From a virus, in IMG/VR virus record IMGVR_UViG_3300021335_000009, positions 20,170 through 84,169 of that record: DNA of 64,000 bases, one strand, 5' to 3'. The notes below the pieces were generated by a model. It saw nothing but the letters and a program-made list of their open reading frames with translations, was not told the DNA's origin and ran no database searches. The position numbers were made by a program, and so were the translations under genes. This document shows positions 24,413 through 40,344 of this stretch, one piece after another (the stretch's first letter is position 1; the number at the start of each line of letters is the position of its first letter).

Positions 24413-24751
24413 ATGCCAGCAGACACATACAACATAACAATTGAAAAACGGGCTACTTTTTTTGTAACCTTGACAATAAAAAATTCTGATGGTAGCGCAT
24501 TTGATCTTACTAATTGTTCTTTAGCGTCTCAAATAAGAATAGATCAATCAAACGCTTTACAAGCAGATTTTACGACTGCTATTGTTGGAAACCCTACGGA
24601 CGGAGTAGCAAGCCTTTCTTTATCAAAAGAGCAATCGTCCTCGCTATCTACAGCTCAAAGTTCTTATGATTTGTTTTTAGATAAAGACGATGGAACTTCT
24701 GAAAAAATTTTAAAAGGGTCTGTGACTATTGAAGAAAATGAAACCCAATGA
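24413..24751 (+). CDS. Ig-like virion protein (BppU N-terminal-like)
   Basis: YNITIEKRATF...FDLTN...YDLFL...ILKGSVTI pattern common in phage tail proteins. Confidence 0.55.
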   Translation: MPADTYNITIEKRATFFVTLTIKNSDGSAFDLTNCSLASQIRIDQSNALQADFTTAIVGNPTDGVASLSLSKEQSSSLSTAQSSYDLFLDKDDGTSEKILKGSVTIEENETQ

Positions 24752-26265
24752 ATTTGTCAGTAACAGTTTCTGGAGAAAACCCAACTTCAGTTTCTCTTGT
24801 AGAAGAATTAAATAATAATATTTTCATATCAGGAAACGCTTCTTTTGAGGCAAAAAAAACTGATATAAAAAATATTTTGGTAATTGTAGGTGAAAAAGAC
24901 AATATTAATGTTCACTCTCAAAACACCATTTACGTTACTGGGGATGTAGTTAGACCTTCTGAAATAGCACCCATTCAAACCGCAATAAGCGATCTCGATT
25001 CAAGAGTCGCTTCCAACGATTCGGACATTGGAGCTCTACAAACTGCGACGGGCGATCTTGATTCAAGAGTCGCTTCCAACGATTCGGACATTGGAGCTCT
25101 ACAAACTGCGACGGGCGATCTCGATTCAAGGGTCGCCTCGAACGATTCGGACATTGGAGCTCTACAAACTGCGACGGGCGATCTCGATTCAAGGGTCGCC
25201 TCGAACGATTCGGACATTGGAGCTCTACAAACTGCGACGGGCGATCTCGATTCAAGAGTCGCTTCCAACGATTCGGACATTGGGGCTCTACAAACGGCTA
25301 CGGGCGATCTCGATTCAAGGGTTGCCTCGAACGATTCGGACATTGGGGCTCTACAAACGGCTACGGGCGATCTCGATTCAAGGGTTGCCTCGAACGATTC
25401 GGACATTGGAGCTCTACAAACTGCGACGGGCGATCTCGATTCAAGGGTTGCCTCGAACGATTCGGACATTGGGGCTCTACAAACGGCTACGGGCGATCTC
25501 GATTCAAGGGCTGCCTCGAACGATTCGGACATTGGAGCTCTACAAACTGCGACGGGCGATCTCGATTCAAGGGTCGCCTCGAACGATTCGGACATTGGAG
25601 CTCTACAAACGGCTACGGGCGATCTCGATTCAAGGGTCGCTTTGAACGATTCGGACATTGGGGCTCTACAAACGGCTACGGGCGATCTCGATTCAAGGGT
25701 CGCCTCGAACGATTCGGACATTGGAGCTCTACAAACGGCTACGGGCGATCTCGATTCAAGGGTTACCTCGAACGATTCGGACATTGGAGCTCTACAAACG
25801 GCGACGGGCGATCTCGATTCAAGAGTCGCTTCGAACGATTCGGACATTGGAGCTCTACAAACGGCGACGGGCGATCTCGATTCAAGAGTCGCTTCGAACG
25901 ATTCGGACATTGGAGCTCTACAAACGGCGACGGGCGATCTCGATTCAAGAGTCGCTTCGAATACAAGTGGTGTAAACACACTAACTGGAAATTTTTCCAA
26001 AACACAACTCAACCTAAAATACAAAGAATATCAACAAACTTATTTCAAAGATTTTATAGAAATTTCTGGAGATTTGTCAAAAATAGAAATTTATGAATCA
26101 TCTTCAAAAAACACAAAATTTTTCACTCAAAACTTTTTTTATAATTTTTCTGGAGATTTAACAGGAGTCTTAATAACCGATCATTTAGACAACAAAACAT
26201 TAACTAAAAATTACGTGTATAACATAAGCGGAGATTTAGTAAATATTTTAGAAAATTATTCATAA
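24748..26265 (+). CDS. Fibre protein with a long 21-aa coiled-coil repeat
   Basis: About 15.5 x DLDSRVASNDSDIGALQTATG (three heptads per unit). Confidence 0.75.
   Translation: MNLSVTVSGENPTSVSLVEELNNNIFISGNASFEAKKTDIKNILVIVGEKDNINVHSQNTIYVTGDVVRPSEIAPIQTAISDLDSRVASNDSDIGALQTATGDLDSRVASNDSDIGALQTATGDLDSRVASNDSDIGALQTATGDLDSRVASNDSDIGALQTATGDLDSRVASNDSDIGALQTATGDLDSRVASNDSDIGALQTATGDLDSRVASNDSDIGALQTATGDLDSRVASNDSDIGALQTATGDLDSRAASNDSDIGALQTATGDLDSRVASNDSDIGALQTATGDLDSRVALNDSDIGALQTATGDLDSRVASNDSDIGALQTATGDLDSRVTSNDSDIGALQTATGDLDSRVASNDSDIGALQTATGDLDSRVASNDSDIGALQTATGDLDSRVASNTSGVNTLTGNFSKTQLNLKYKEYQQTYFKDFIEISGDLSKIEIYESSSKNTKFFTQNFFYNFSGDLTGVLITDHLDNKTLTKNYVYNISGDLVNILENYS
24991..25961 (+). 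repeat. 63-bp tandem repeat, about 15.4 copies
   Basis: GATCTYGATTCAAG anchors every 63 bp from 24991 to 25936. Confidence 0.95.
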
Positions 26266-35077: not shown

Positions 35078-35443
35078 ATGACATCTGACAAGGTTAAAAA
35101 AATAACCCCGCATAGAAGAAAATTAAACATTTTAAGCAGGCTTCTTGACATTCCAGAAAAACAAAAAAGGTTTTTTTATGCTAGGGAAATGAAATTTTTA
35201 AAAATTTTAGAAGAAAGATATTCTTTAGATTTTTTAGAAATAATTACTTTTCCAAAAAAATATGACAGTTTGGCCATTTTAGTTTCAAAAGAGCTAAAAC
35301 AAACTATGAATAAAAAATGGAATAATTTTAATTTTAAAATTGACACTTCAAAATACCAAAAGTATAATATAGGAAAAAAATCAGGAGAAGATTTTGTACC
35401 TACAAAAAAACAATTAAAAAGAACAAAAGATTTATTTAAATGA
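35078..35443 (+). CDS. Hypothetical protein
   Basis: 121 aa. TTGACA-N16-TAACAT (35043-35070) lies 7 nt upstream. Confidence 0.7.
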   Translation: MTSDKVKKITPHRRKLNILSRLLDIPEKQKRFFYAREMKFLKILEERYSLDFLEIITFPKKYDSLAILVSKELKQTMNKKWNNFNFKIDTSKYQKYNIGKKSGEDFVPTKKQLKRTKDLFK

Positions 35444-36552
35444 GCGACAAAGATTCACAACTACTAGAAAAATTCTTAAAAGAAACAAAAGGCCAACATT
35501 ATAATTTTGAAGATACTATTGATTATAAAGTCTCAAGCGGTTCTTTGCAGCTCGATTTAGTTTTAGATGGTGGACTTGGGCCAGGACTACATAGATTTGT
35601 AGGAATGAATGAAGGAGGAAAAACTTCATCAGCTTTAGAGTTTATGAAAAACATGCTTAACAGTGTTCCAAAATCAAAAGGATTTTATATCAAAGCAGAA
35701 GGAAGGCTTTCTCCAGAAATGCAAAAAAGATCTGGAGTAAAATTCGTTTTTAGCGCTAAAGATTGGGTAGAAGGAACATGTTTTGTATTTGAAAGTAATA
35801 TTTACGAAGTTGTTGTTGACGCTATACACCAACTTGTAGAACAAAACGAGGAAAAAAATAAATATTGTTTTTTGCTTGATTCTGTAGATGGCTTGATTTC
35901 TAAACAAGATATTGAAAAGTCTTTTTACGACTCTAATAAAGTTGCTGGGGGAGCAGTAATCGCAGCCAACTTTATGAAAAGAATGTCTATTAAGCTTGCT
36001 AAAAGAGGACACATGGCTTTTTTTATTAGTCAAGTAAGGGCTGATATTACTTTAGATCCATACTCAAAAGCTCCTGTTCGACAAACTACGGCTACAGGAG
36101 GAAATGCATTGCTCCATTTTGCTAATTACATTATGGAATTTGAACCTAGATTTAAAACAGATTTAATTGTTCAAGATCCAACTAAAAAAACTGTAGATTT
36201 AAAAACGAATCCTATTATTGGTCATTGGGCAAAAGTAACAATTAAAAAGTCTCCAAACGAAAAAACAAACAATAAAATTCTTTATCCTATTAAGTATGGA
36301 AGAGTAGGTGGAAAATCTATTTGGGTAGAAAAAGAATTAATTGATTTAATGTACATGTGGGAATTTATTAGGAAAAAGGGAGCGTGGATCATGATAGAAG
36401 AAGAATTAAAAGAATTAGTCAAAGAAGTTGCTCCAGATCTTCCCAACAGTATTCAAGGCGAAAATAACCTTTTTAAAACGATAGAAGGTAACGAAAAGCT
36501 TTCTAAATTTTTAGTTGATTATTTTAAGTCAAACATACACGAATCTGTGTAA
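35440..36552 (+). CDS. RecA/UvsX-like recombinase
   Basis: SSGSLQLDLVL, Walker A GMNEGGKTS, LLDSV, ISQVR, TGGNAL motifs. Confidence 0.85.
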   Translation: MSDKDSQLLEKFLKETKGQHYNFEDTIDYKVSSGSLQLDLVLDGGLGPGLHRFVGMNEGGKTSSALEFMKNMLNSVPKSKGFYIKAEGRLSPEMQKRSGVKFVFSAKDWVEGTCFVFESNIYEVVVDAIHQLVEQNEEKNKYCFLLDSVDGLISKQDIEKSFYDSNKVAGGAVIAANFMKRMSIKLAKRGHMAFFISQVRADITLDPYSKAPVRQTTATGGNALLHFANYIMEFEPRFKTDLIVQDPTKKTVDLKTNPIIGHWAKVTIKKSPNEKTNNKILYPIKYGRVGGKSIWVEKELIDLMYMWEFIRKKGAWIMIEEELKELVKEVAPDLPNSIQGENNLFKTIEGNEKLSKFLVDYFKSNIHESV

Positions 36553-36565
36553 TAGTATATAATAT

Positions 36566-37130
36566 GGCCTTGACCTCTTGCATATCTATAGTTTTGATTT
36601 TTTAGATCTTTATGTAACGTCAAGGTTCTTCTGTTCTTTCTCATCTCTGGCCCTTGATCCTCCTATCCAGTCCTTAGCGATTGTGAAGAGCCTTGGGCAT
36701 TCTTAATGCTGCGCGGCAGATCCTCCAAGCCTTATGGCTTTGGATATGGCTTTTTCCTCTTTCGCCCGATAAGTAAAGAGGCTTCTTTAAAAACCGACTA
36801 ACAAACCAGAAACAGAACTGGGACAGCTTTAAGTGCTTGGAAACAAATGTAACGAGGTTTTCATTGTTCGGTTCCTCAGCTTTTTTAGACTTCCTGCAAA
36901 TGTCTTTTGAGCGTTGCAGTGCCCGTAGATTCGCAACCTATGGGTTTAGTAGGCCCCCTGCGCCTCTGGCTTCCAAATTGGTTGCTAATTCCTTCCCAAG
37001 TGCTGACGAGTGCGTTAGGGTTGGTGCGTAATTCAGGGGGTGTTTTCTTTATCAAACTTCCCACGCCACTCAATGAAGCGCAATTTGGGAGGTGGTTCTT
37101 TTTACAAATAGACCCCAGAACTTGTAACAA
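36566..37130 (+). ncRNA. Large structured non-coding RNA, class unassigned (GOLLD/ROOL-like context)
   Basis: GC-rich region without credible CDS. At least 10 helices whose G-U pairs all favour the + strand. GTGTAA motif at 36547-36552. Confidence 0.7.
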
Positions 37131-37194
37131 AATAAGACTTAATATATTATATAAATAACTGAGTATCGAGCGTTTACTTATAATATGTTATTCA

Positions 37195-37270
37195 CTAGCC
37201 TTCCTCTAATAGCGATAAGACTCCATGCTTGATCATGGTGAATGTGGGTATGCGAATTCCACAGGCTAGC
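37195..37270 (+). tRNA. tRNA-like element 1 (6-nt anticodon loop CTTGAT, 9-nt T loop)
   Basis: Acceptor CTAGCCT/AGGCTAG, anticodon stem CCATG/CATGG, T stem GTGGG/TCCAC. No encoded CCA. Confidence 0.6.
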
Positions 37271-37275
37271 CCTTT

Positions 37276-37347
37276 AGTTCCATAGTTTAATCGGCAAAAA
37301 TCCCGTAGTCACATTCGGAGTCCCCAGTTCAAATCTGGGTGGAACTT
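37276..37347 (+). tRNA. tRNA-like element 2 (6-nt anticodon loop GTCACA)
   Basis: Acceptor AGTTCCA/TGGAACT, canonical T arm CCCAG-TTCAAAT-CTGGG, D arm TAGTTTAATCGG, anticodon stem CCGTA/TTCGG. Confidence 0.7.
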
Positions 37348-37367
37348 ACACAATAACACCTCTCACG

Positions 37368-37429
37368 CCTTTGGTCTGCATTGCGGACGCTTAATGGACT
37401 GAGCTTTTCTCGGTCGGGCGCACCAGAGG
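37368..37429 (+). ncRNA. Small multi-helix RNA element
   Basis: CCTTTGGT/ACCAGAGG closing stem around a GACTGAG/CTCGGTC hairpin. A GTCTGC/GCGGAC hairpin overlaps the 5' arm by 2 nt. Confidence 0.55.
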
Positions 37430-37455
37430 GGCTACTTTTAAAATAAAATAAAAAA

Positions 37456-37866
37456 ATGAAATTTAAATCCATCACATCTGGAAAAGAAAAATATTTAAAA
37501 AATCCATTTAGATTCAAGATAAAATGGAACGGCAAATGCAGAAGCAAATTTCAGTCTGAAGTGAGAAAGTATTTGTATAATTATTGGAAATACGATAGCG
37601 TTTACGAAGAATTTCCCATAATAGGAACCAAGCTTTCTTTGGATTTTTACAATCACACAAAAAAAATAGCAATAGAAGTTCAAGGAGCTCAACATTTTAA
37701 GTTTGTAAAACACTTTCACAAAACAAAAGCTAATTTTTTAAGACAAATTCGCAGAGATGATAAAAAAATGGAATTTTGCGAATTAAACGACATCAAACTT
37801 ATAGAAATTTATCCAGACGATGAATTATCTGAAGATTTTTTTATAAAAATGCTGCATTCGGTGTAA
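37456..37866 (+). CDS. Vsr/DUF559-like endonuclease
   Basis: YEEF...LDFY...IAIEVQGAQH...RDDKK motif. Confidence 0.75.
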   Translation: MKFKSITSGKEKYLKNPFRFKIKWNGKCRSKFQSEVRKYLYNYWKYDSVYEEFPIIGTKLSLDFYNHTKKIAIEVQGAQHFKFVKHFHKTKANFLRQIRRDDKKMEFCELNDIKLIEIYPDDELSEDFFIKMLHSV

Positions 37867-38157: not shown

Positions 38158-40344
38158 ATGATATATAGTCTTGAAATTGAAAAACAAGTTTTAGCAGCTT
38201 TCATACAAAAGCCCAAGCTTTTAGTAAATTTTAATCATTTGATTAGCGAGGCCGATTTTCACAATGGCTCTCTTTTACATAAGACTCTTTTTGCTGTTTT
38301 AAAAAAAGCCTGCCAACAAGAAGAGTCTATTGACGAAGTTGTATTGGTTCAAAGAGTTAAAGAGCTTGGAATAAAATTCGAAGAAGATCTGTCTCTTATT
38401 GATTATGTAAAATCATTGTCGATGAGAAAGATTCATTCCGAAGAAAAAATCAAATCTGTTGTCCAAGAATTAAAAAAGTATAGCGTAAGGCGAGAAATAT
38501 ACAAAACAGCAAAAGACATAGCTGATTCGATGAAAACTATGTCTCCAAATGAATCGTATTTAGGCATAATTGAATCTGCGGATAAAATTTACAACGATAA
38601 AGTAAATTTATTTGAAGTGGGCAACGATGTTCCAGAAAACATTTACGACTCAATGGAGGAATTCATTGAAGAAAGAGGAAATAACCCTATTGAAGAATTT
38701 GGCATGATGGGGCCACATAAAAAAGTTAATGATATTTATGGCTCTCTTTTAAGACCAGGGAATATTACGGTATTTGTTGCTCGCTCAGGAGTCGGCAAAA
38801 TGAACCCTTTATACACAAAGGTATTAACTCCTGACGGTTTTACTGAAATGAGAAATATTTCAGTAGGGTCTGAGGTTGTTTGTCCTAATGGAAAAATTTC
38901 AAAAGTTTTAAAAACATTTGACCATAAGAATAAAGATGTCTATAGAGTGACTTTTGAAGATGGAAGATATAGTGATTGTGGATTAGAGCACTTATGGAAA
39001 GTCTCTTACAAAAACAAAAGTTTTAAGTCTAACTGGGTAGTTTCAGATACGCAACAAATTAAAAATGTATTAAACGAAGGCCATGAAGTTTACATTCCTT
39101 TAGTTCCTGAAATCAAAAATTATGAAGAAAAACTAAAAAAATTAAAACTCTTTATTAAAGAAAGGACGGAATCTTCTCAAGAAGATCCTAACAGTTTAAA
39201 TTACCTAACAAAAACAAAAACATTAGCAGAAAAAGTTCAAAAATTTGCATGGGCTTTGGGGGCAAAAGCAAAAATTTCAAGTTTAAAAATTTCTGACGAT
39301 GACATATTCAAAGTTAAAATTGAAATCCCTGATTTTAGAAACGAAAACTCTACAAAACTTCAAATTGTAGCCGTTCAAAAACTAGAAAAAAAAGAAGACT
39401 GCCGATGCATACAAATTGACGAAAAAGAGCATTTATACATTATTGATGAATTTATTGTTACGCATAACACTCAATTATGCATGGATTATTCCACTAAGGT
39501 TTCCGCAAAATATGATGTACCTGTATTGCATTTTGATAATGGAGAAATGAGCAAAGATGAACTGGTAATTCGTCAATGTGCAGCTCTTTCTGGAGTTCCT
39601 CCCCACTTATTAGAAAGTGGCAAATGGAGGCAGGCTGGAGACGAAACCGTTCAAAAAGTAAGAAGCGTTTGGAAAAAAATAAAAAATTTAAAATTTTACT
39701 ATTATAATGTAGGAGGAATGGAAGTAGATTCCATGATTAACACATTAAAAAGGTTTTATTATTCTAAAGTGGGCAGAGGAAACAAAATGATATTTTCTTT
39801 TGATTATATTAAGACCTCTTCAGATAGCGGATTTGGCAATAAAAATGAATGGCAGCTTGTAGGAGAAATGGTAGACAAGTTTAAAAAAACCATCCAAAAA
39901 GAAATTTTGGAAGACGGAGCTCCAGTAATACCAATGATTACATCTGTGCAGTCCAATAGAAGCGGAATAACAACAAACAGAAATAGCTCTAACATTATTG
40001 ACGACGAATCTGTGGTTTCTCTTTCTGACAGGATCACTCAGTTTTGCTCTCACATGTTTATTTTAAGACAAAAAACTAATGACGAAATGGCAGAAGAGGG
40101 TAGTCAATTTGGGACGCACAAATTAATTAATGTAAAATCTAGACACTTGGGTAAAGATGTTGCTGGTGCGGTAGAGCCTGTTCAAGTAGGAGACGATCTT
40201 AGAAAAAACTTCATTAATTTATCTTTTAGAAACTTTAACATAACAGAATGTGGGGATTTAAGAGATATTGTTTATTTTAGAAATTCTTCTGAAGATTTAT
40301 CTACAGATTCTGTCGATAATGTTCCTTCGTTTGATGATTTATGA
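38158..40344 (+). CDS. dnaB: Replicative DNA helicase with intein
   Basis: DnaB N-terminal domain, Walker A ARSGVGK/T split by an intein, GEMS, FDYI and SVQSNR motifs. Confidence 0.9.
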   Translation: MIYSLEIEKQVLAAFIQKPKLLVNFNHLISEADFHNGSLLHKTLFAVLKKACQQEESIDEVVLVQRVKELGIKFEEDLSLIDYVKSLSMRKIHSEEKIKSVVQELKKYSVRREIYKTAKDIADSMKTMSPNESYLGIIESADKIYNDKVNLFEVGNDVPENIYDSMEEFIEERGNNPIEEFGMMGPHKKVNDIYGSLLRPGNITVFVARSGVGKMNPLYTKVLTPDGFTEMRNISVGSEVVCPNGKISKVLKTFDHKNKDVYRVTFEDGRYSDCGLEHLWKVSYKNKSFKSNWVVSDTQQIKNVLNEGHEVYIPLVPEIKNYEEKLKKLKLFIKERTESSQEDPNSLNYLTKTKTLAEKVQKFAWALGAKAKISSLKISDDDIFKVKIEIPDFRNENSTKLQIVAVQKLEKKEDCRCIQIDEKEHLYIIDEFIVTHNTQLCMDYSTKVSAKYDVPVLHFDNGEMSKDELVIRQCAALSGVPPHLLESGKWRQAGDETVQKVRSVWKKIKNLKFYYYNVGGMEVDSMINTLKRFYYSKVGRGNKMIFSFDYIKTSSDSGFGNKNEWQLVGEMVDKFKKTIQKEILEDGAPVIPMITSVQSNRSGITTNRNSSNIIDDESVVSLSDRITQFCSHMFILRQKTNDEMAEEGSQFGTHKLINVKSRHLGKDVAGAVEPVQVGDDLRKNFINLSFRNFNITECGDLRDIVYFRNSSEDLSTDSVDNVPSFDDL
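38800..39468 (+). mobile_element. Class 3 intein (223 aa, Met1, reduced endonuclease region) in the DnaB P-loop
   Basis: MNPLYTKVLTPDG...EHLW...CRCIQI...IVTHN followed by T. W/C/T triplet present. Confidence 0.85.

What the first reader, a model, noticed from the sequence alone, without database searches (positions are those of the whole stretch)
37195..37347. Two tandem tRNA-like RNAs that both have 6-nt anticodon loops
Seen: both fold as cloverleaves with perfect 7-bp acceptor stems, yet each anticodon loop is 6 nt (CTTGAT and GTCACA) rather than 7. Element 1 also has a 9-nt T loop, and neither encodes CCA. The same defect in two unrelated sequences with intact stems suggests selection rather than decay. 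Inference: non-decoding tRNA mimics acting as RNase P/Z processing signals that mature the large upstream RNA, decoys for anticodon nucleases (PrrC, PARIS-type), or frameshift-promoting tRNAs.
Basis: partly seen in the sequence, partly recalled or inferred. Interest (0 to 1): 0.78.

Follow-up and report, generated by a model that had tools for sequence, protein, structure and literature searches.

The report
Non-decoding tRNA-shaped units in phage RNA cassette
Two tRNA-shaped RNAs with too-short anticodon loops are real and are kept in that state in other marine phages, as parts of a small RNA-only cassette that moves between unrelated phages and whose function is still untested.

Summary
Element 2 (37276-37347) is a high-scoring tRNA cloverleaf: 43.1 bits on Rfam tRNA against a cut-off of 29. 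ARAGORN calls it 'tRNA-???' with a two-base anticodon, that is, a 6-nt loop. Element 1 (37195-37270) is a looser cloverleaf with a 6-nt loop and a 9-nt T loop. Neither encodes CCA, whereas all 6 ordinary tRNA genes of this phage do.

Neither is an assembly slip. An independent assembly of the likely source sample reproduces both.

Both sit in an ~805-nt, GC-richer, non-coding cassette (36633-37437). It is absent from 43 syntenic relatives. It is present, with the same sharp borders, in four contigs of an unrelated phage lineage. There element 2 keeps its 6-nt loop (3 of 3 copies). Element 1 keeps its stems through compensatory changes, and its loop is 5 or 6 nt, never 7.

In those homologues the cassette also holds a CCA-encoding tRNA-Met and an abiF-type antitoxin RNA hairpin, with no AbiF gene in the two records searched. 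Module order differs between copies.

Best reading: selected, non-decoding tRNA-shaped modules, probably RNase P/Z punctuation of a multi-RNA transcript. An anti-defence decoy role is the bold rival. Function is untested.

The parts
36633..37437 (+). RNA-only cassette, about 805 nt, GC 0.45 against 0.33 for the phage record. It was inserted between the RecA/UvsX-like gene (35440-36552) and a conserved 136-aa endonuclease-like gene (37456-37866).
   Evidence: Similarity to L050-L052 starts at 36633 and ends at 37437, and flanks are about 30% identical. In all 4 laid runs, contigs diverge from the window at 36633 into the same foreign upstream sequence. At 37437/37439 they diverge into three different downstream sequences. 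The cassette is absent from 43 syntenic relatives. No conserved ORF: indels between copies are of 1-2 nt (table 4).
36633..36704 (+). Module A, the conserved 5' module.
   Evidence: 71 of 72 positions identical to L050, L051 and L052. 80% identical over 75 nt to L053.
36705..36892 (+). Module A2, an optional module. It is absent from L050-L052 and replaced there by 2 nt. It includes a hairpin plus T-run at about 36756-36790.
   Evidence: Deletion joints 36704>36893 and 36778>36893 appear in contigs of X1, X2 and X3. The module itself is present in X5 and X3 contigs. Window 36716-36789 is 86% identical to L008 5272-5344, directly upstream of that relative's orf136.
36893..37050 (+). Module B, a multi-branched structured module.
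   Evidence: 131-139 of 154-158 positions identical to L050-L052. The consensus fold has a long closing helix and inner hairpins. The hairpin at about 36921-36945 differs in sequence and length between copies but still folds. RNAalifold counted no double-sided change in that alignment.
37057..37093 (+). abiF-type hairpin (Rfam RF03085), below the cut-off in the window.
   Evidence: 31.4 bits against a cut-off of 37. Homologous hairpins pass the cut-off: L053 45.1 bits, L051 and L052 40.2 bits. The inner stem changes CGC/GCG to CAC/GUG between the window and L051/L052. No Abi_2 (PF07751) gene in the window's record or in L053's record.
37131..37194 (+). AT-rich spacer (GC 0.20), nearly invariant. 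It contains TATAAATA and TATAAT-like boxes and ends 1 nt before element 1.
   Evidence: 62 of 64 identical to L050-L052 and 61 of 64 to L053, so better kept than element 1 next to it. The promoter reading is inference. The sigma-70 consensus scan gave no more sites than shuffles.
37195..37270 (+). Element 1: a tRNA-shaped RNA with a 6-nt loop (CUUGAU), a 9-nt T loop, a 3-bp D stem and no CCA.
   Evidence: Present in 5 of 5 cassette copies. The acceptor is invariant, and the anticodon-like stem is 100% paired with 3 of 5 pairs changed on both sides. The loop is 6 nt in the window and L053, and 5 nt in L050, L051 and L052. The T loop is 9 or 8 nt. No RF00005 match. Its model aligns 5 of the phage's own tRNAs in full cloverleaf register at only 11-16 bits.
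37276..37347 (+). Element 2: a near-canonical tRNA cloverleaf with a 6-nt loop (GUCACA), a conserved U.U in the anticodon stem, discriminator U and no CCA.
   Evidence: Present in 4 of 5 cassette copies with a 6-nt loop in all (GUCAUA in L050-L052). Pair 1-71 is A-U in three copies and G-C in L051. Among the phage's own tRNAs it is closest to tRNA-Thr(UGU), 38.7 bits against 10.9-23.2 for the other four that scored.
37359..37431 (+). 3' module: a closing helix with an internal loop and two hairpins (three-way junction).
   Evidence: 67-70 of 73 positions identical in L050-L053. Consensus fold, where one closing-helix pair varies on one side only (U-G in the window, C-G in L050-L052). Present in all 5 copies, and its last 28 nt lie at the cut start of L054. 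No Rfam family.

Best explanation
Elements 1 and 2 are tRNA-shaped, non-decoding modules of a horizontally exchanged, RNA-only phage cassette (36633-37437).

Shown: both are cloverleaves. Element 2 descends from a real tRNA; its acceptor and D arm are closest to the phage's tRNA-Thr. Both are kept across an unrelated phage lineage with anticodon arms that are always too short: 16 nt for element 2 and 15-16 nt for element 1, against the canonical 17. Neither carries the encoded CCA that every real tRNA gene of these phages has.

Inferred mechanism: the cassette is transcribed as a multi-RNA precursor, possibly from the nearly invariant AT-rich spacer just upstream. Host RNase P cuts at the 5' end of each tRNA shape. 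RNase Z cuts after the discriminator, because these units lack CCA. This would release and stabilise the tRNA-shaped RNAs and set free the neighbouring modules, in particular the 3' three-way-junction RNA. The elements would then work as punctuation and stable ends, not as adaptors.

My odds: about 0.75 that they are selected and non-decoding, and about 0.4-0.45 that RNase P/Z punctuation is their main role.
For: (1) Element 2 scores 43.1 bits on RF00005 with one letter missing in the loop. Its copies in L050-L052 score 43.3-44.8 bits with the same 6-nt loop.

(2) Conservation is module-shaped. Element 2 is 68-70/72 identical and the spacer 62/64, against about 30% in the flanks. The only change seen in element 2's stems is a compensatory acceptor pair.

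(3) In element 1 the acceptor is invariant in 5 of 5 copies and the anticodon-like stem covaries (3 of 5 pairs changed on both sides, 100% paired). Its loop length and sequence drift (CUUGAU, CUUAAU, CUCAU, UUUAU) and its D loop has a 3-nt indel. That pattern is expected if shape and the acceptor/T half matter and the anticodon does not.

(4) CCA is encoded by 6 of 6 ordinary tRNA genes of this phage and by the cassette's own tRNA-Met in L050-L053, but by neither element. From textbook knowledge, which I recall and did not test here, CCA-less precursors are the substrates of bacterial RNase Z, and an acceptor/T minihelix suffices for RNase P.

(5) The modules are separable units. Their order differs in L053, and single modules are deleted or inserted between copies. 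Units like that need a way to be cut apart.

(6) The third 'anticodon' base differs between close copies, CAC against CAU, which argues against decoding.
Against: No RNA ends, cleavage or expression were observed. My single read-laying run went to DNA contigs.

L053 keeps the 3' module without element 2. A degenerate element-1-like copy of 21.4 bits stands in its place. So element 2 is not required for that module.

Element 2 keeps its D arm, tertiary-contact bases and whole anticodon stem almost unchanged. That is more than a processing signal needs and hints at a partner that reads the full L-shape.

The sample is small: 5 copies, of which 4 are distinct for element 1 and 3 for element 2. 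L050-L052 are close to one another. The covariation measures for element 1 were reached by 26 of 500 shuffles, and those for element 2 by 172 of 500.

Folding energies are not better than shuffles.

The promoter reading of the spacer has no support from the consensus scan.
Confidence: 0.45

Rival explanations
1. Anti-defence decoys. The cassette is an RNA counter-defence package. The tRNA-shaped units bind tRNA-targeting host nucleases (HEPN enzymes such as AbiF/Cas13-like, PrrC or RloC; PARIS-type Toprim nucleases) but cannot be cut productively or used. The abiF-type hairpin mimics the AbiF antitoxin RNA, and the real tRNA-Met in other copies replaces a depleted host tRNA.
For: abiF-type hairpins pass Rfam's cut-off in 3 of 4 homologous loci (45.1, 40.2 and 40.2 bits against 37). 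They stand without an Abi_2 gene in the two records I could search. In C. difficile the abiF-motif RNA binds AbiF and neutralises it in trans (abstract and passages of bioRxiv 10.1101/2025.04.15.648962). A review reports that the AbiF ncRNA blocks the HEPN active site and that a hairpin at a phage cos site inhibits AbiF (passages of PMC13064643). The cassette is patchy and mobile between unrelated phages, as counter-defence loci usually are. Element 2 keeps the full tRNA L-shape. Its loop in most copies (UCAUA) resembles the loop of the cassette's tRNA-Met (CUCAUAA).
Against: No host, no defence system and no binding were examined. The window's own abiF-type hairpin is below the cut-off at 31.4 bits. 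L050 lacks the hairpin altogether. The RNA targets of AbiF are not known from what I read (one search lists its mode of action as '?'). A full-text search for phage tRNA-like decoys found no precedent.
Confidence: 0.25
2. Decaying tRNA pseudogenes carried along in a mobile tRNA island. The short loops are neutral deletions inherited by descent.
For: All element 2 copies could share one ancestral deletion. Element 2 resembles the phage's tRNA-Thr. In L053 element 2 is gone and a degenerate element-1-like remnant stands in its place, so loss and decay do occur in this locus. Element 1's T stem carries a U.U in 3 of 5 copies.
Against: Element 2 (68-70/72 identical) is far better kept than element 1, module B or the abiF-type hairpin. 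Stem changes are compensatory in both elements. Element 1 changed loop length again without losing any stem pair of its anticodon arm.
Confidence: 0.12
3. Parts of one large folded RNA, a GOLLD/ROOL-like architecture with embedded tRNA shapes, rather than separate small RNAs.
For: Large phage RNAs near tRNA islands are known, and tRNAs can sit in the GOLLD linker. One marine GOLLD lies downstream of a tRNA-Met (passages of bioRxiv 10.1101/2024.12.08.627333; PMC5737381). The cassette has fixed outer borders.
Against: No match of GOLLD (RF02032) or ROOL (RF03087) at the cassette, and none in three E-value scans. Module order differs in L053, and whole modules are optional. That is hard to reconcile with one fixed tertiary fold.
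Confidence: 0.08
4. Working tRNAs that decode abnormally, by doublet or frameshift reading or by stop suppression.
For: Element 2 has every tertiary hallmark of a tRNA and a high model score. U-C-A is constant in its loop in the four cassette copies aligned.
Against: No encoded CCA, unlike 6 of 6 real tRNA genes here. The loop reads CAC in the window but CAU elsewhere. Element 1's loop is 5 or 6 nt and its sequence is not conserved. Neighbouring genes read open under the standard bacterial code. A full-text search found no report of a natural decoding tRNA with a six-membered loop (five phrasings, one unrelated listed hit).
Confidence: 0.05

Closest known systems
Viral and cellular tRNA-like processing elements (murine gammaherpesvirus 68 tRNA-miRNA units; MALAT1 mascRNA).
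   Same: A tRNA-shaped unit that is not used in decoding is fused to other non-coding RNA. RNase P and RNase Z cleavage at the tRNA shape defines the ends of its neighbours. No CCA is encoded.
   Different: Those examples are eukaryotic or animal-virus elements. No cleavage is shown here. Here two unrelated tRNA shapes stand in tandem in a bacteriophage cassette that also carries a real tRNA in other copies.
Stable 'species 1 and 2' RNAs of the phage T4 tRNA gene cluster.
   Same: Small stable phage RNAs of unknown function, co-transcribed and co-processed with tRNAs, with tRNA-like ends.
   Different: No sequence relation was tested or is claimed. The T4 RNAs are not cloverleaves with shortened anticodon loops, as far as I recall.
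GOLLD and ROOL RNAs (Rfam RF02032, RF03087)
   Same: Phage-borne non-coding RNA next to or around tRNAs. A tRNA-Met association is reported for a marine GOLLD.
   Different: Neither covariance model matches the cassette. The cassette is modular and can be reordered, whereas those are single ornate folds.
AbiF type III toxin-antitoxin RNA (abiF motif, RF03085) and phage antitoxin mimics such as pseudo-ToxI (the latter recalled)
   Same: The cassette carries an abiF-type hairpin that passes the family cut-off in 3 homologues. Antitoxin RNA can act in trans.
   Different: The hairpin is not upstream of an abiF gene (ORF lists). It occurs as a single copy per cassette, not as two motifs. The window's copy is below the cut-off.
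Phage tRNAs with altered anticodon loops that escape anticodon nucleases.
   Same: Phage-borne tRNA genes whose anticodon loops differ from the host's, in an arms-race context.
   Different: Those keep 7-nt loops and still decode. Here the loops are 5-6 nt and CCA is missing.

Membership tests
Canonical decoding tRNA (Rfam RF00005) | Score at or above the family cut-off of 29 bits | tested here: met
   Element 2 scores 43.1 bits, and 43.3-44.8 bits in L050-L052. Element 1 has no match at E<=10 in the same 271-nt search, so this feature is met for element 2 only.
Canonical decoding tRNA (Rfam RF00005) | Seven-membered anticodon loop on a 5-bp stem | tested here: not met
   Element 2 has 6 nt in 4 of 4 copies. 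Element 1 has 6, 6, 5, 5, 5 nt in 5 copies.
Canonical decoding tRNA (Rfam RF00005) | Seven-membered T loop (TTCRANY type) | tested here: inconclusive
   Element 2 meets it: TTCAAAT in the window, TTCGAAT in the homologues. Element 1 does not: 9 or 8 nt.
Canonical decoding tRNA (Rfam RF00005) | 3' CCA encoded, as in the other tRNA genes of these phages | tested here: not met
   Neither element has it. 6 of 6 own tRNA genes do, and so does the cassette tRNA-Met.
Canonical decoding tRNA (Rfam RF00005) | Aminoacylation and use on the ribosome | not testable with these tools
   Needs acid-gel or periodate assays.
tRNA-like processing signals (RNase P/Z punctuation) | Intact acceptor/T coaxial helix without a decoding function | tested here: met
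   7-bp acceptor stems invariant or compensated, T stems kept, loops too short to decode.
tRNA-like processing signals (RNase P/Z punctuation) | Observed RNase P and RNase Z cleavage, and non-templated CCA | not testable with these tools
   No RNA reads were laid.
abiF RNA motif (RF03085) | Score at or above 37 bits | tested here: inconclusive
   Window 31.4 bits, below the cut-off. The homologous hairpins score 45.1, 40.2 and 40.2 bits, above it.
abiF RNA motif (RF03085) | Lies directly upstream of an Abi_2/AbiF gene | tested here: not met
   No PF07751 match in the window's 84-kb record or in L053's record. The ORFs next to the cassette in L051 and L052 are a terminase and small unknown proteins.
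GOLLD (RF02032) / ROOL (RF03087) | Match to the family covariance model | tested here: not met
   GOLLD gave only a 4.1-bit chance hit elsewhere in the record. ROOL gave none. The ROOL control rang in none of the 14 control genomes, so that search is weakly informative. The E-value scans of the locus also list neither family.
Frameshift-suppressor tRNAs | Expanded (8-9 nt) anticodon loop on an otherwise chargeable tRNA | tested here: not met
   The loops are contracted (5-6 nt), not expanded.
tmRNA | tRNA-like domain plus tag reading frame | tested here: not met
   ARAGORN reports no tmRNA in the window or in the whole record.

The most novel reading that the evidence does not exclude
Marine phages trade an RNA-only counter-defence cassette. 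It bundles a mimic of the AbiF antitoxin RNA, a spare real tRNA, and two tRNA look-alikes whose anticodon loops are deliberately too short. The look-alikes would soak up tRNA-cutting HEPN-type defence nucleases without being usable or cleavable. Host RNase P and RNase Z would cut the whole into its working pieces.
Probability: 0.17. Interest if true: 0.85.

Novelty: new variant of a known kind. Interest (0 to 1): 0.62.

Why it matters
Phage tRNA genes are usually read as codon-usage helpers or as replacements for tRNAs cut by host defences. Here two tRNA shapes are kept by selection in a state that cannot decode. They lie inside a compact cassette of structured RNAs that has moved between unrelated marine phages and that carries an orphan abiF-type antitoxin hairpin.

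If the elements are processing punctuation, this is a bacterial-virus counterpart of the tRNA-linked non-coding RNAs of herpesviruses and of MALAT1. If they are decoys, it would be a first case of tRNA mimicry used against tRNA-targeting immunity, and the cassette would be a ready-made set of RNA inhibitors to test.

Either way, annotation pipelines will tend to label such genes 'tRNA-undetermined/pseudo' or miss them. Here a 43-bit tRNA hit was lost in three wider Rfam searches.

Tried and rejected
Assembly error: rejected. An independent assembly of X1 gives 0 differences over both elements, and other samples keep the short loops.

A 7-nt loop by re-pairing: rejected by hand. No shifted register of either anticodon arm gives 5 pairs plus 7 nt. 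ViennaRNA instead opens element 2's weak A-U and U.U pairs to a 3-bp stem with a 10-nt loop.

Coding sequence in the locus: rejected. ORFs of 64-83 aa overlap 36837-37158, but copies differ by 1-2-nt indels there (table 4).

Relatives by synteny. 43 loci found with the RecA/UvsX-like protein gave no cassette and no tRNA. In two of them I looked at the gap, L037 and L047, and it holds a 237-254-aa ORF instead. Whole records of two relatives (G001, G002) also lack the cassette. Three further handles were not held and so not searched.

Exact-pattern scans that found nothing: viral contigs with five patterns, and genome contigs with two. The last viral scan only re-found L053's contig. These blanks say little, because the region assembles into short contigs (table 8).

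The phage collection gave no match by DNA or by the RecA-like protein.

RNA runs.

The habitat spread of small-share runs (freshwater, mat, reef) was not checked beyond X5 and is not used.

The sigma-70 and terminator consensus scan of the locus gave no enrichment.

Pfam on the helicase insert found nothing.

Literature. No paper was found on six-membered anticodon loops in natural decoding tRNAs or on phage tRNA-like decoys. Supplementary files, which may list abiF-motif or phage RNA motif members, were closed and not seen.
Full report
WHAT IS THERE. The window is part of an 84-kb IMG/VR virus record (62% complete, GC 0.33). The finding lies in a 903-nt gap without a credible gene. Upstream is a RecA/UvsX-like gene (35440-36552, Pfam RecA E 7e-10). 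Downstream is a 136-aa endonuclease-like gene (37456-37866, PHROG 559 E 7e-17). Then come a DnaB-like helicase, a primase and a PD-(D/E)XK nuclease.

ARAGORN finds one gene in the whole window: 37276-37347, 'tRNA-???' with the two-base anticodon 'ca', that is, a 6-nt loop. Its drawing shows a textbook cloverleaf apart from that loop and a U.U in the anticodon stem. Rfam's tRNA model gives 43.1 bits (cut-off 29) once the stretch is searched on its own, with 6 letters where the model has 7. The whole-window, 2.5-kb and whole-record searches had missed it, which I take as a filter loss.

Element 1 (37195-37270) has a perfect 7-bp acceptor, a perfect 5-bp anticodon-like stem with loop CUUGAT, and a T stem with a 9-nt loop. 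It fails the Rfam tRNA model and ARAGORN's bacterial mode. ARAGORN's mitochondrial mode calls it with a two-base anticodon.

Neither element encodes CCA. The phage's six ordinary tRNA genes, in an array outside the window, all do. Folding energies are not better than shuffles (z -0.34 and -1.66), so the evidence is architecture and comparison, not stability.

NOT AN ARTEFACT. Contigs made by a different assembler from the probable source run X1 cover 36979-37311 and 37282-37420 without a single difference. In run X2 a 195-nt contig over 37131-37330 places all 5 of its gap letters in element 1 and none in element 2.

THE ELEMENTS BELONG TO A MOBILE CASSETTE. Forty-three loci with an 66-84% identical RecA/UvsX-like protein keep the same gene order. 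None has the intergenic sequence. The only match is a 74-nt hairpin piece in L008. None of the 43 has a tRNA by ARAGORN. In most, the two flanking genes abut.

Laying contigs of four runs showed that similarity to other DNA begins at 36633 and ends at 37437/37439. The foreign upstream sequence is the same in all four runs, and there are three different downstream continuations. One metagenome scan with a 24-nt piece of the 5' module fetched three contigs, L050-L052. Their terminase led to a fourth copy, L053.

These contigs have GC 0.41-0.44, a large terminase (PHROG 2) and small unknown genes. None of the 8 proteins I took from them finds a relative in the window's record. They are therefore another phage lineage. 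The cassette's GC (0.45) is nearer theirs.

Identity by module, window against L050-L052:
- 5' module: 71/72
- Module B: 131-139 of 154-158
- abiF-type hairpin: 27/37
- AT-rich spacer: 62/64
- Element 1: 59-63 of 71, plus 5 gap columns
- Element 2: 68-70 of 72
- 3' module: 67-68 of 73
- Flanks: about 30%

A minor contig of the L05x type (differences at 37312, 37331 and 37354) is present in the source run X1 itself, so both variants co-occur in one sample.

THE CASSETTE IS MODULAR. The window has a 188-nt module (36705-36892) that L050-L052 lack. L050 lacks the abiF-type hairpin. L050-L053 carry a tRNA-Met(CAU) with encoded CCA (30.8-31.8 bits) and an extra hairpin, both of which the window lacks. 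In L053 the abiF-type hairpin lies before module B instead of after it, and a further ~170-nt piece follows the tRNA-Met. Deletion joints between module borders also appear in the laid contigs (table 5). This argues for a string of separable RNAs rather than one large fold. GOLLD and ROOL models do not match.

WHAT THE HOMOLOGUES SAY ABOUT THE TWO ELEMENTS.

Element 2 is present in 4 of 5 cassette copies, always with 6 loop letters: GUCACA in the window and GUCAUA in L050-L052. A contig of X3 carries G>C and C>T at the first and fifth loop positions, but its two gaps are not located in the rows shown, so its loop length is open. Only 4 of 72 columns vary. Two of these are the two sides of acceptor pair 1-71, A-U to G-C in L051. 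The U.U in the anticodon stem is constant. A model built from element 2 aligns the phage's real tRNAs with a one-letter insertion in the loop. It scores tRNA-Thr(UGU) far above the rest: 38.7 bits against 10.9-23.2. Element 2 therefore looks like a descendant of a Thr-type tRNA gene.

Element 1 is present in 5 of 5 copies. Its acceptor and 3-bp D stem never vary. Its anticodon-like stem is paired in every cell, with 3 of 5 pairs changed on both sides. Its loop is CUUGAU, CUUAAU, CUCAU (in two copies) or UUUAU. Its T loop is 9 or 8 nt. Its D loop has a 3-nt indel.

With four distinct rows the shuffle control is only modest: 26 of 500 shuffles reach the observed values. Sliding the partners drops pairing from 97.5% to 31-45%. 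In L053 element 2 is replaced by a degenerate element-1-like copy of 21.4 bits.

The pattern is conserved shape with free or short loops.

HOW IT MOST LIKELY WORKS. Shown: tRNA shapes that cannot present a normal anticodon, that lack the CCA carried by real tRNA genes of the same phages, and that are kept across lineages inside an array of independent structured RNAs.

Inferred: the array is made as a precursor and cut by the host's tRNA-processing enzymes. RNase P cuts at 37195 and 37276. RNase Z cuts after the discriminators at 37270 and 37347, because CCA-less precursors are its substrates (recalled textbook knowledge). This would free the neighbouring RNAs and leave stable tRNA-shaped ends. 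The nearly invariant AT-rich spacer ending 1 nt before element 1 may be a promoter or a processing or entry site. The consensus scan gives it no support.

Against this reading: no RNA data, L053 does without element 2, and element 2 is conserved well beyond what a cleavage signal needs.

THE BOLD RIVAL. The hairpin at 37057-37093 matches Rfam's abiF motif at 31.4 bits, below the cut-off of 37. Its homologues pass at 45.1 and 40.2 bits, and the inner stem differs by a compensatory change. No Abi_2 gene is in the window's record or in L053's.

The abiF-motif RNA is the antitoxin of the HEPN RNase AbiF. It binds AbiF and works in trans (abstract and passages). A review notes that it blocks the HEPN site and that a phage cos-site hairpin inhibits AbiF (passages). 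The same preprint recalls that Cas13a, a relative of AbiF, cuts tRNA anticodons.

An orphan antitoxin-like hairpin, a spare tRNA and two undecodable tRNA shapes in one mobile cassette would fit an RNA counter-defence kit. This is inference only. I give it about one chance in four to six.

COMPARISON AND NOVELTY. The nearest known things are these:
- tRNA-like processing units fused to other non-coding RNAs (herpesvirus tRNA-miRNA units, mascRNA; recalled)
- the stable RNAs of the T4 tRNA cluster (recalled)
- GOLLD and ROOL near phage tRNA islands
- RNA antitoxin mimicry

The elements are not decoding tRNAs by the loop and CCA criteria. They are not GOLLD or ROOL, and not expanded-loop suppressors. 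Full-text searches found no report of natural six-membered anticodon loops that decode, and none of phage tRNA-like decoys. Supplementary motif lists could not be opened. I rate it a new variant of a known kind.

My data recast it as a modular, mobile cassette.

LIMITS. There are only five cassette copies, three of them closely related. There are no RNA ends, no host, and no experiment.

Noticed in passing
window 38800-39468 (within helicase gene 38158-40344): The DnaB-like helicase carries a 223-aa insert (aa 215-437). In the relatives whose contigs reach that far, residue 214 joins directly to residue 438. The insert sits right after GVGK of the P-loop and ends ...THN followed by T, which looks like an intein without an N-terminal Cys (class 3-like; the class is recalled). 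PHROG hits to terminase, primase and DnaC families overlap its start. Pfam finds nothing.
   Followed up: partly
window 37276-37347; G000:C1:57445-57516: A 43-bit tRNA match (cut-off 29) was lost in the whole-window gathering scan, the 2.5-kb E-value scan and the whole-record family search. It appeared only when 271 nt were searched alone. Other RNAs in this window may have been missed the same way.
   Followed up: partly
L035-L039, L047, L048 (e.g. L037 5150-5863; L047 5097-5861): Seven relatives have a 760-820-nt gap at the same RecA/orf136 junction. In the two I inspected, the gap holds a 237-254-aa gene with a signal-peptide-like start. Nine others have 64-233 nt of non-coding sequence there. 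The junction is an insertion hotspot.
   Followed up: partly
L008 5114-5343; window 36716-36789: A relative's short intergenic region ends in a hairpin plus T-run that is 86% identical to a piece inside the window's optional module A2. Either it is a relic of a cassette, or it is native sequence captured by the cassette.
   Followed up: no
G000:C1:1965-2035 (-), outside the window: A sixth tRNA-like gene ends the phage's tRNA array. Rfam gives it 37.7 bits but ARAGORN misses it. It has a GCA anticodon in a normal 7-nt loop, an odd T arm, and is followed by CCA.
   Followed up: no
window 37131-37194: The 64-nt AT-rich spacer (GC 0.20) is the best conserved part of the cassette (61-62 of 64 in four other copies), better than the structured RNAs on either side. 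It holds TATAAATA and TATAAT-like boxes. Its role (promoter, protein site or unwinding element) is open.
   Followed up: partly
L053 1116-1290 and 1466-1561: This copy has an extra ~170-nt GC-rich piece after the tRNA-Met. In place of element 2 it has a degenerate duplicate of element 1's D and anticodon part followed by a 7-bp hairpin. These look like recombination scars within the cassette.
   Followed up: partly
window 25001-26000: A GC spike (0.535 against about 0.31 around it) lies inside a 505-aa ORF (24748-26265).
   Followed up: no
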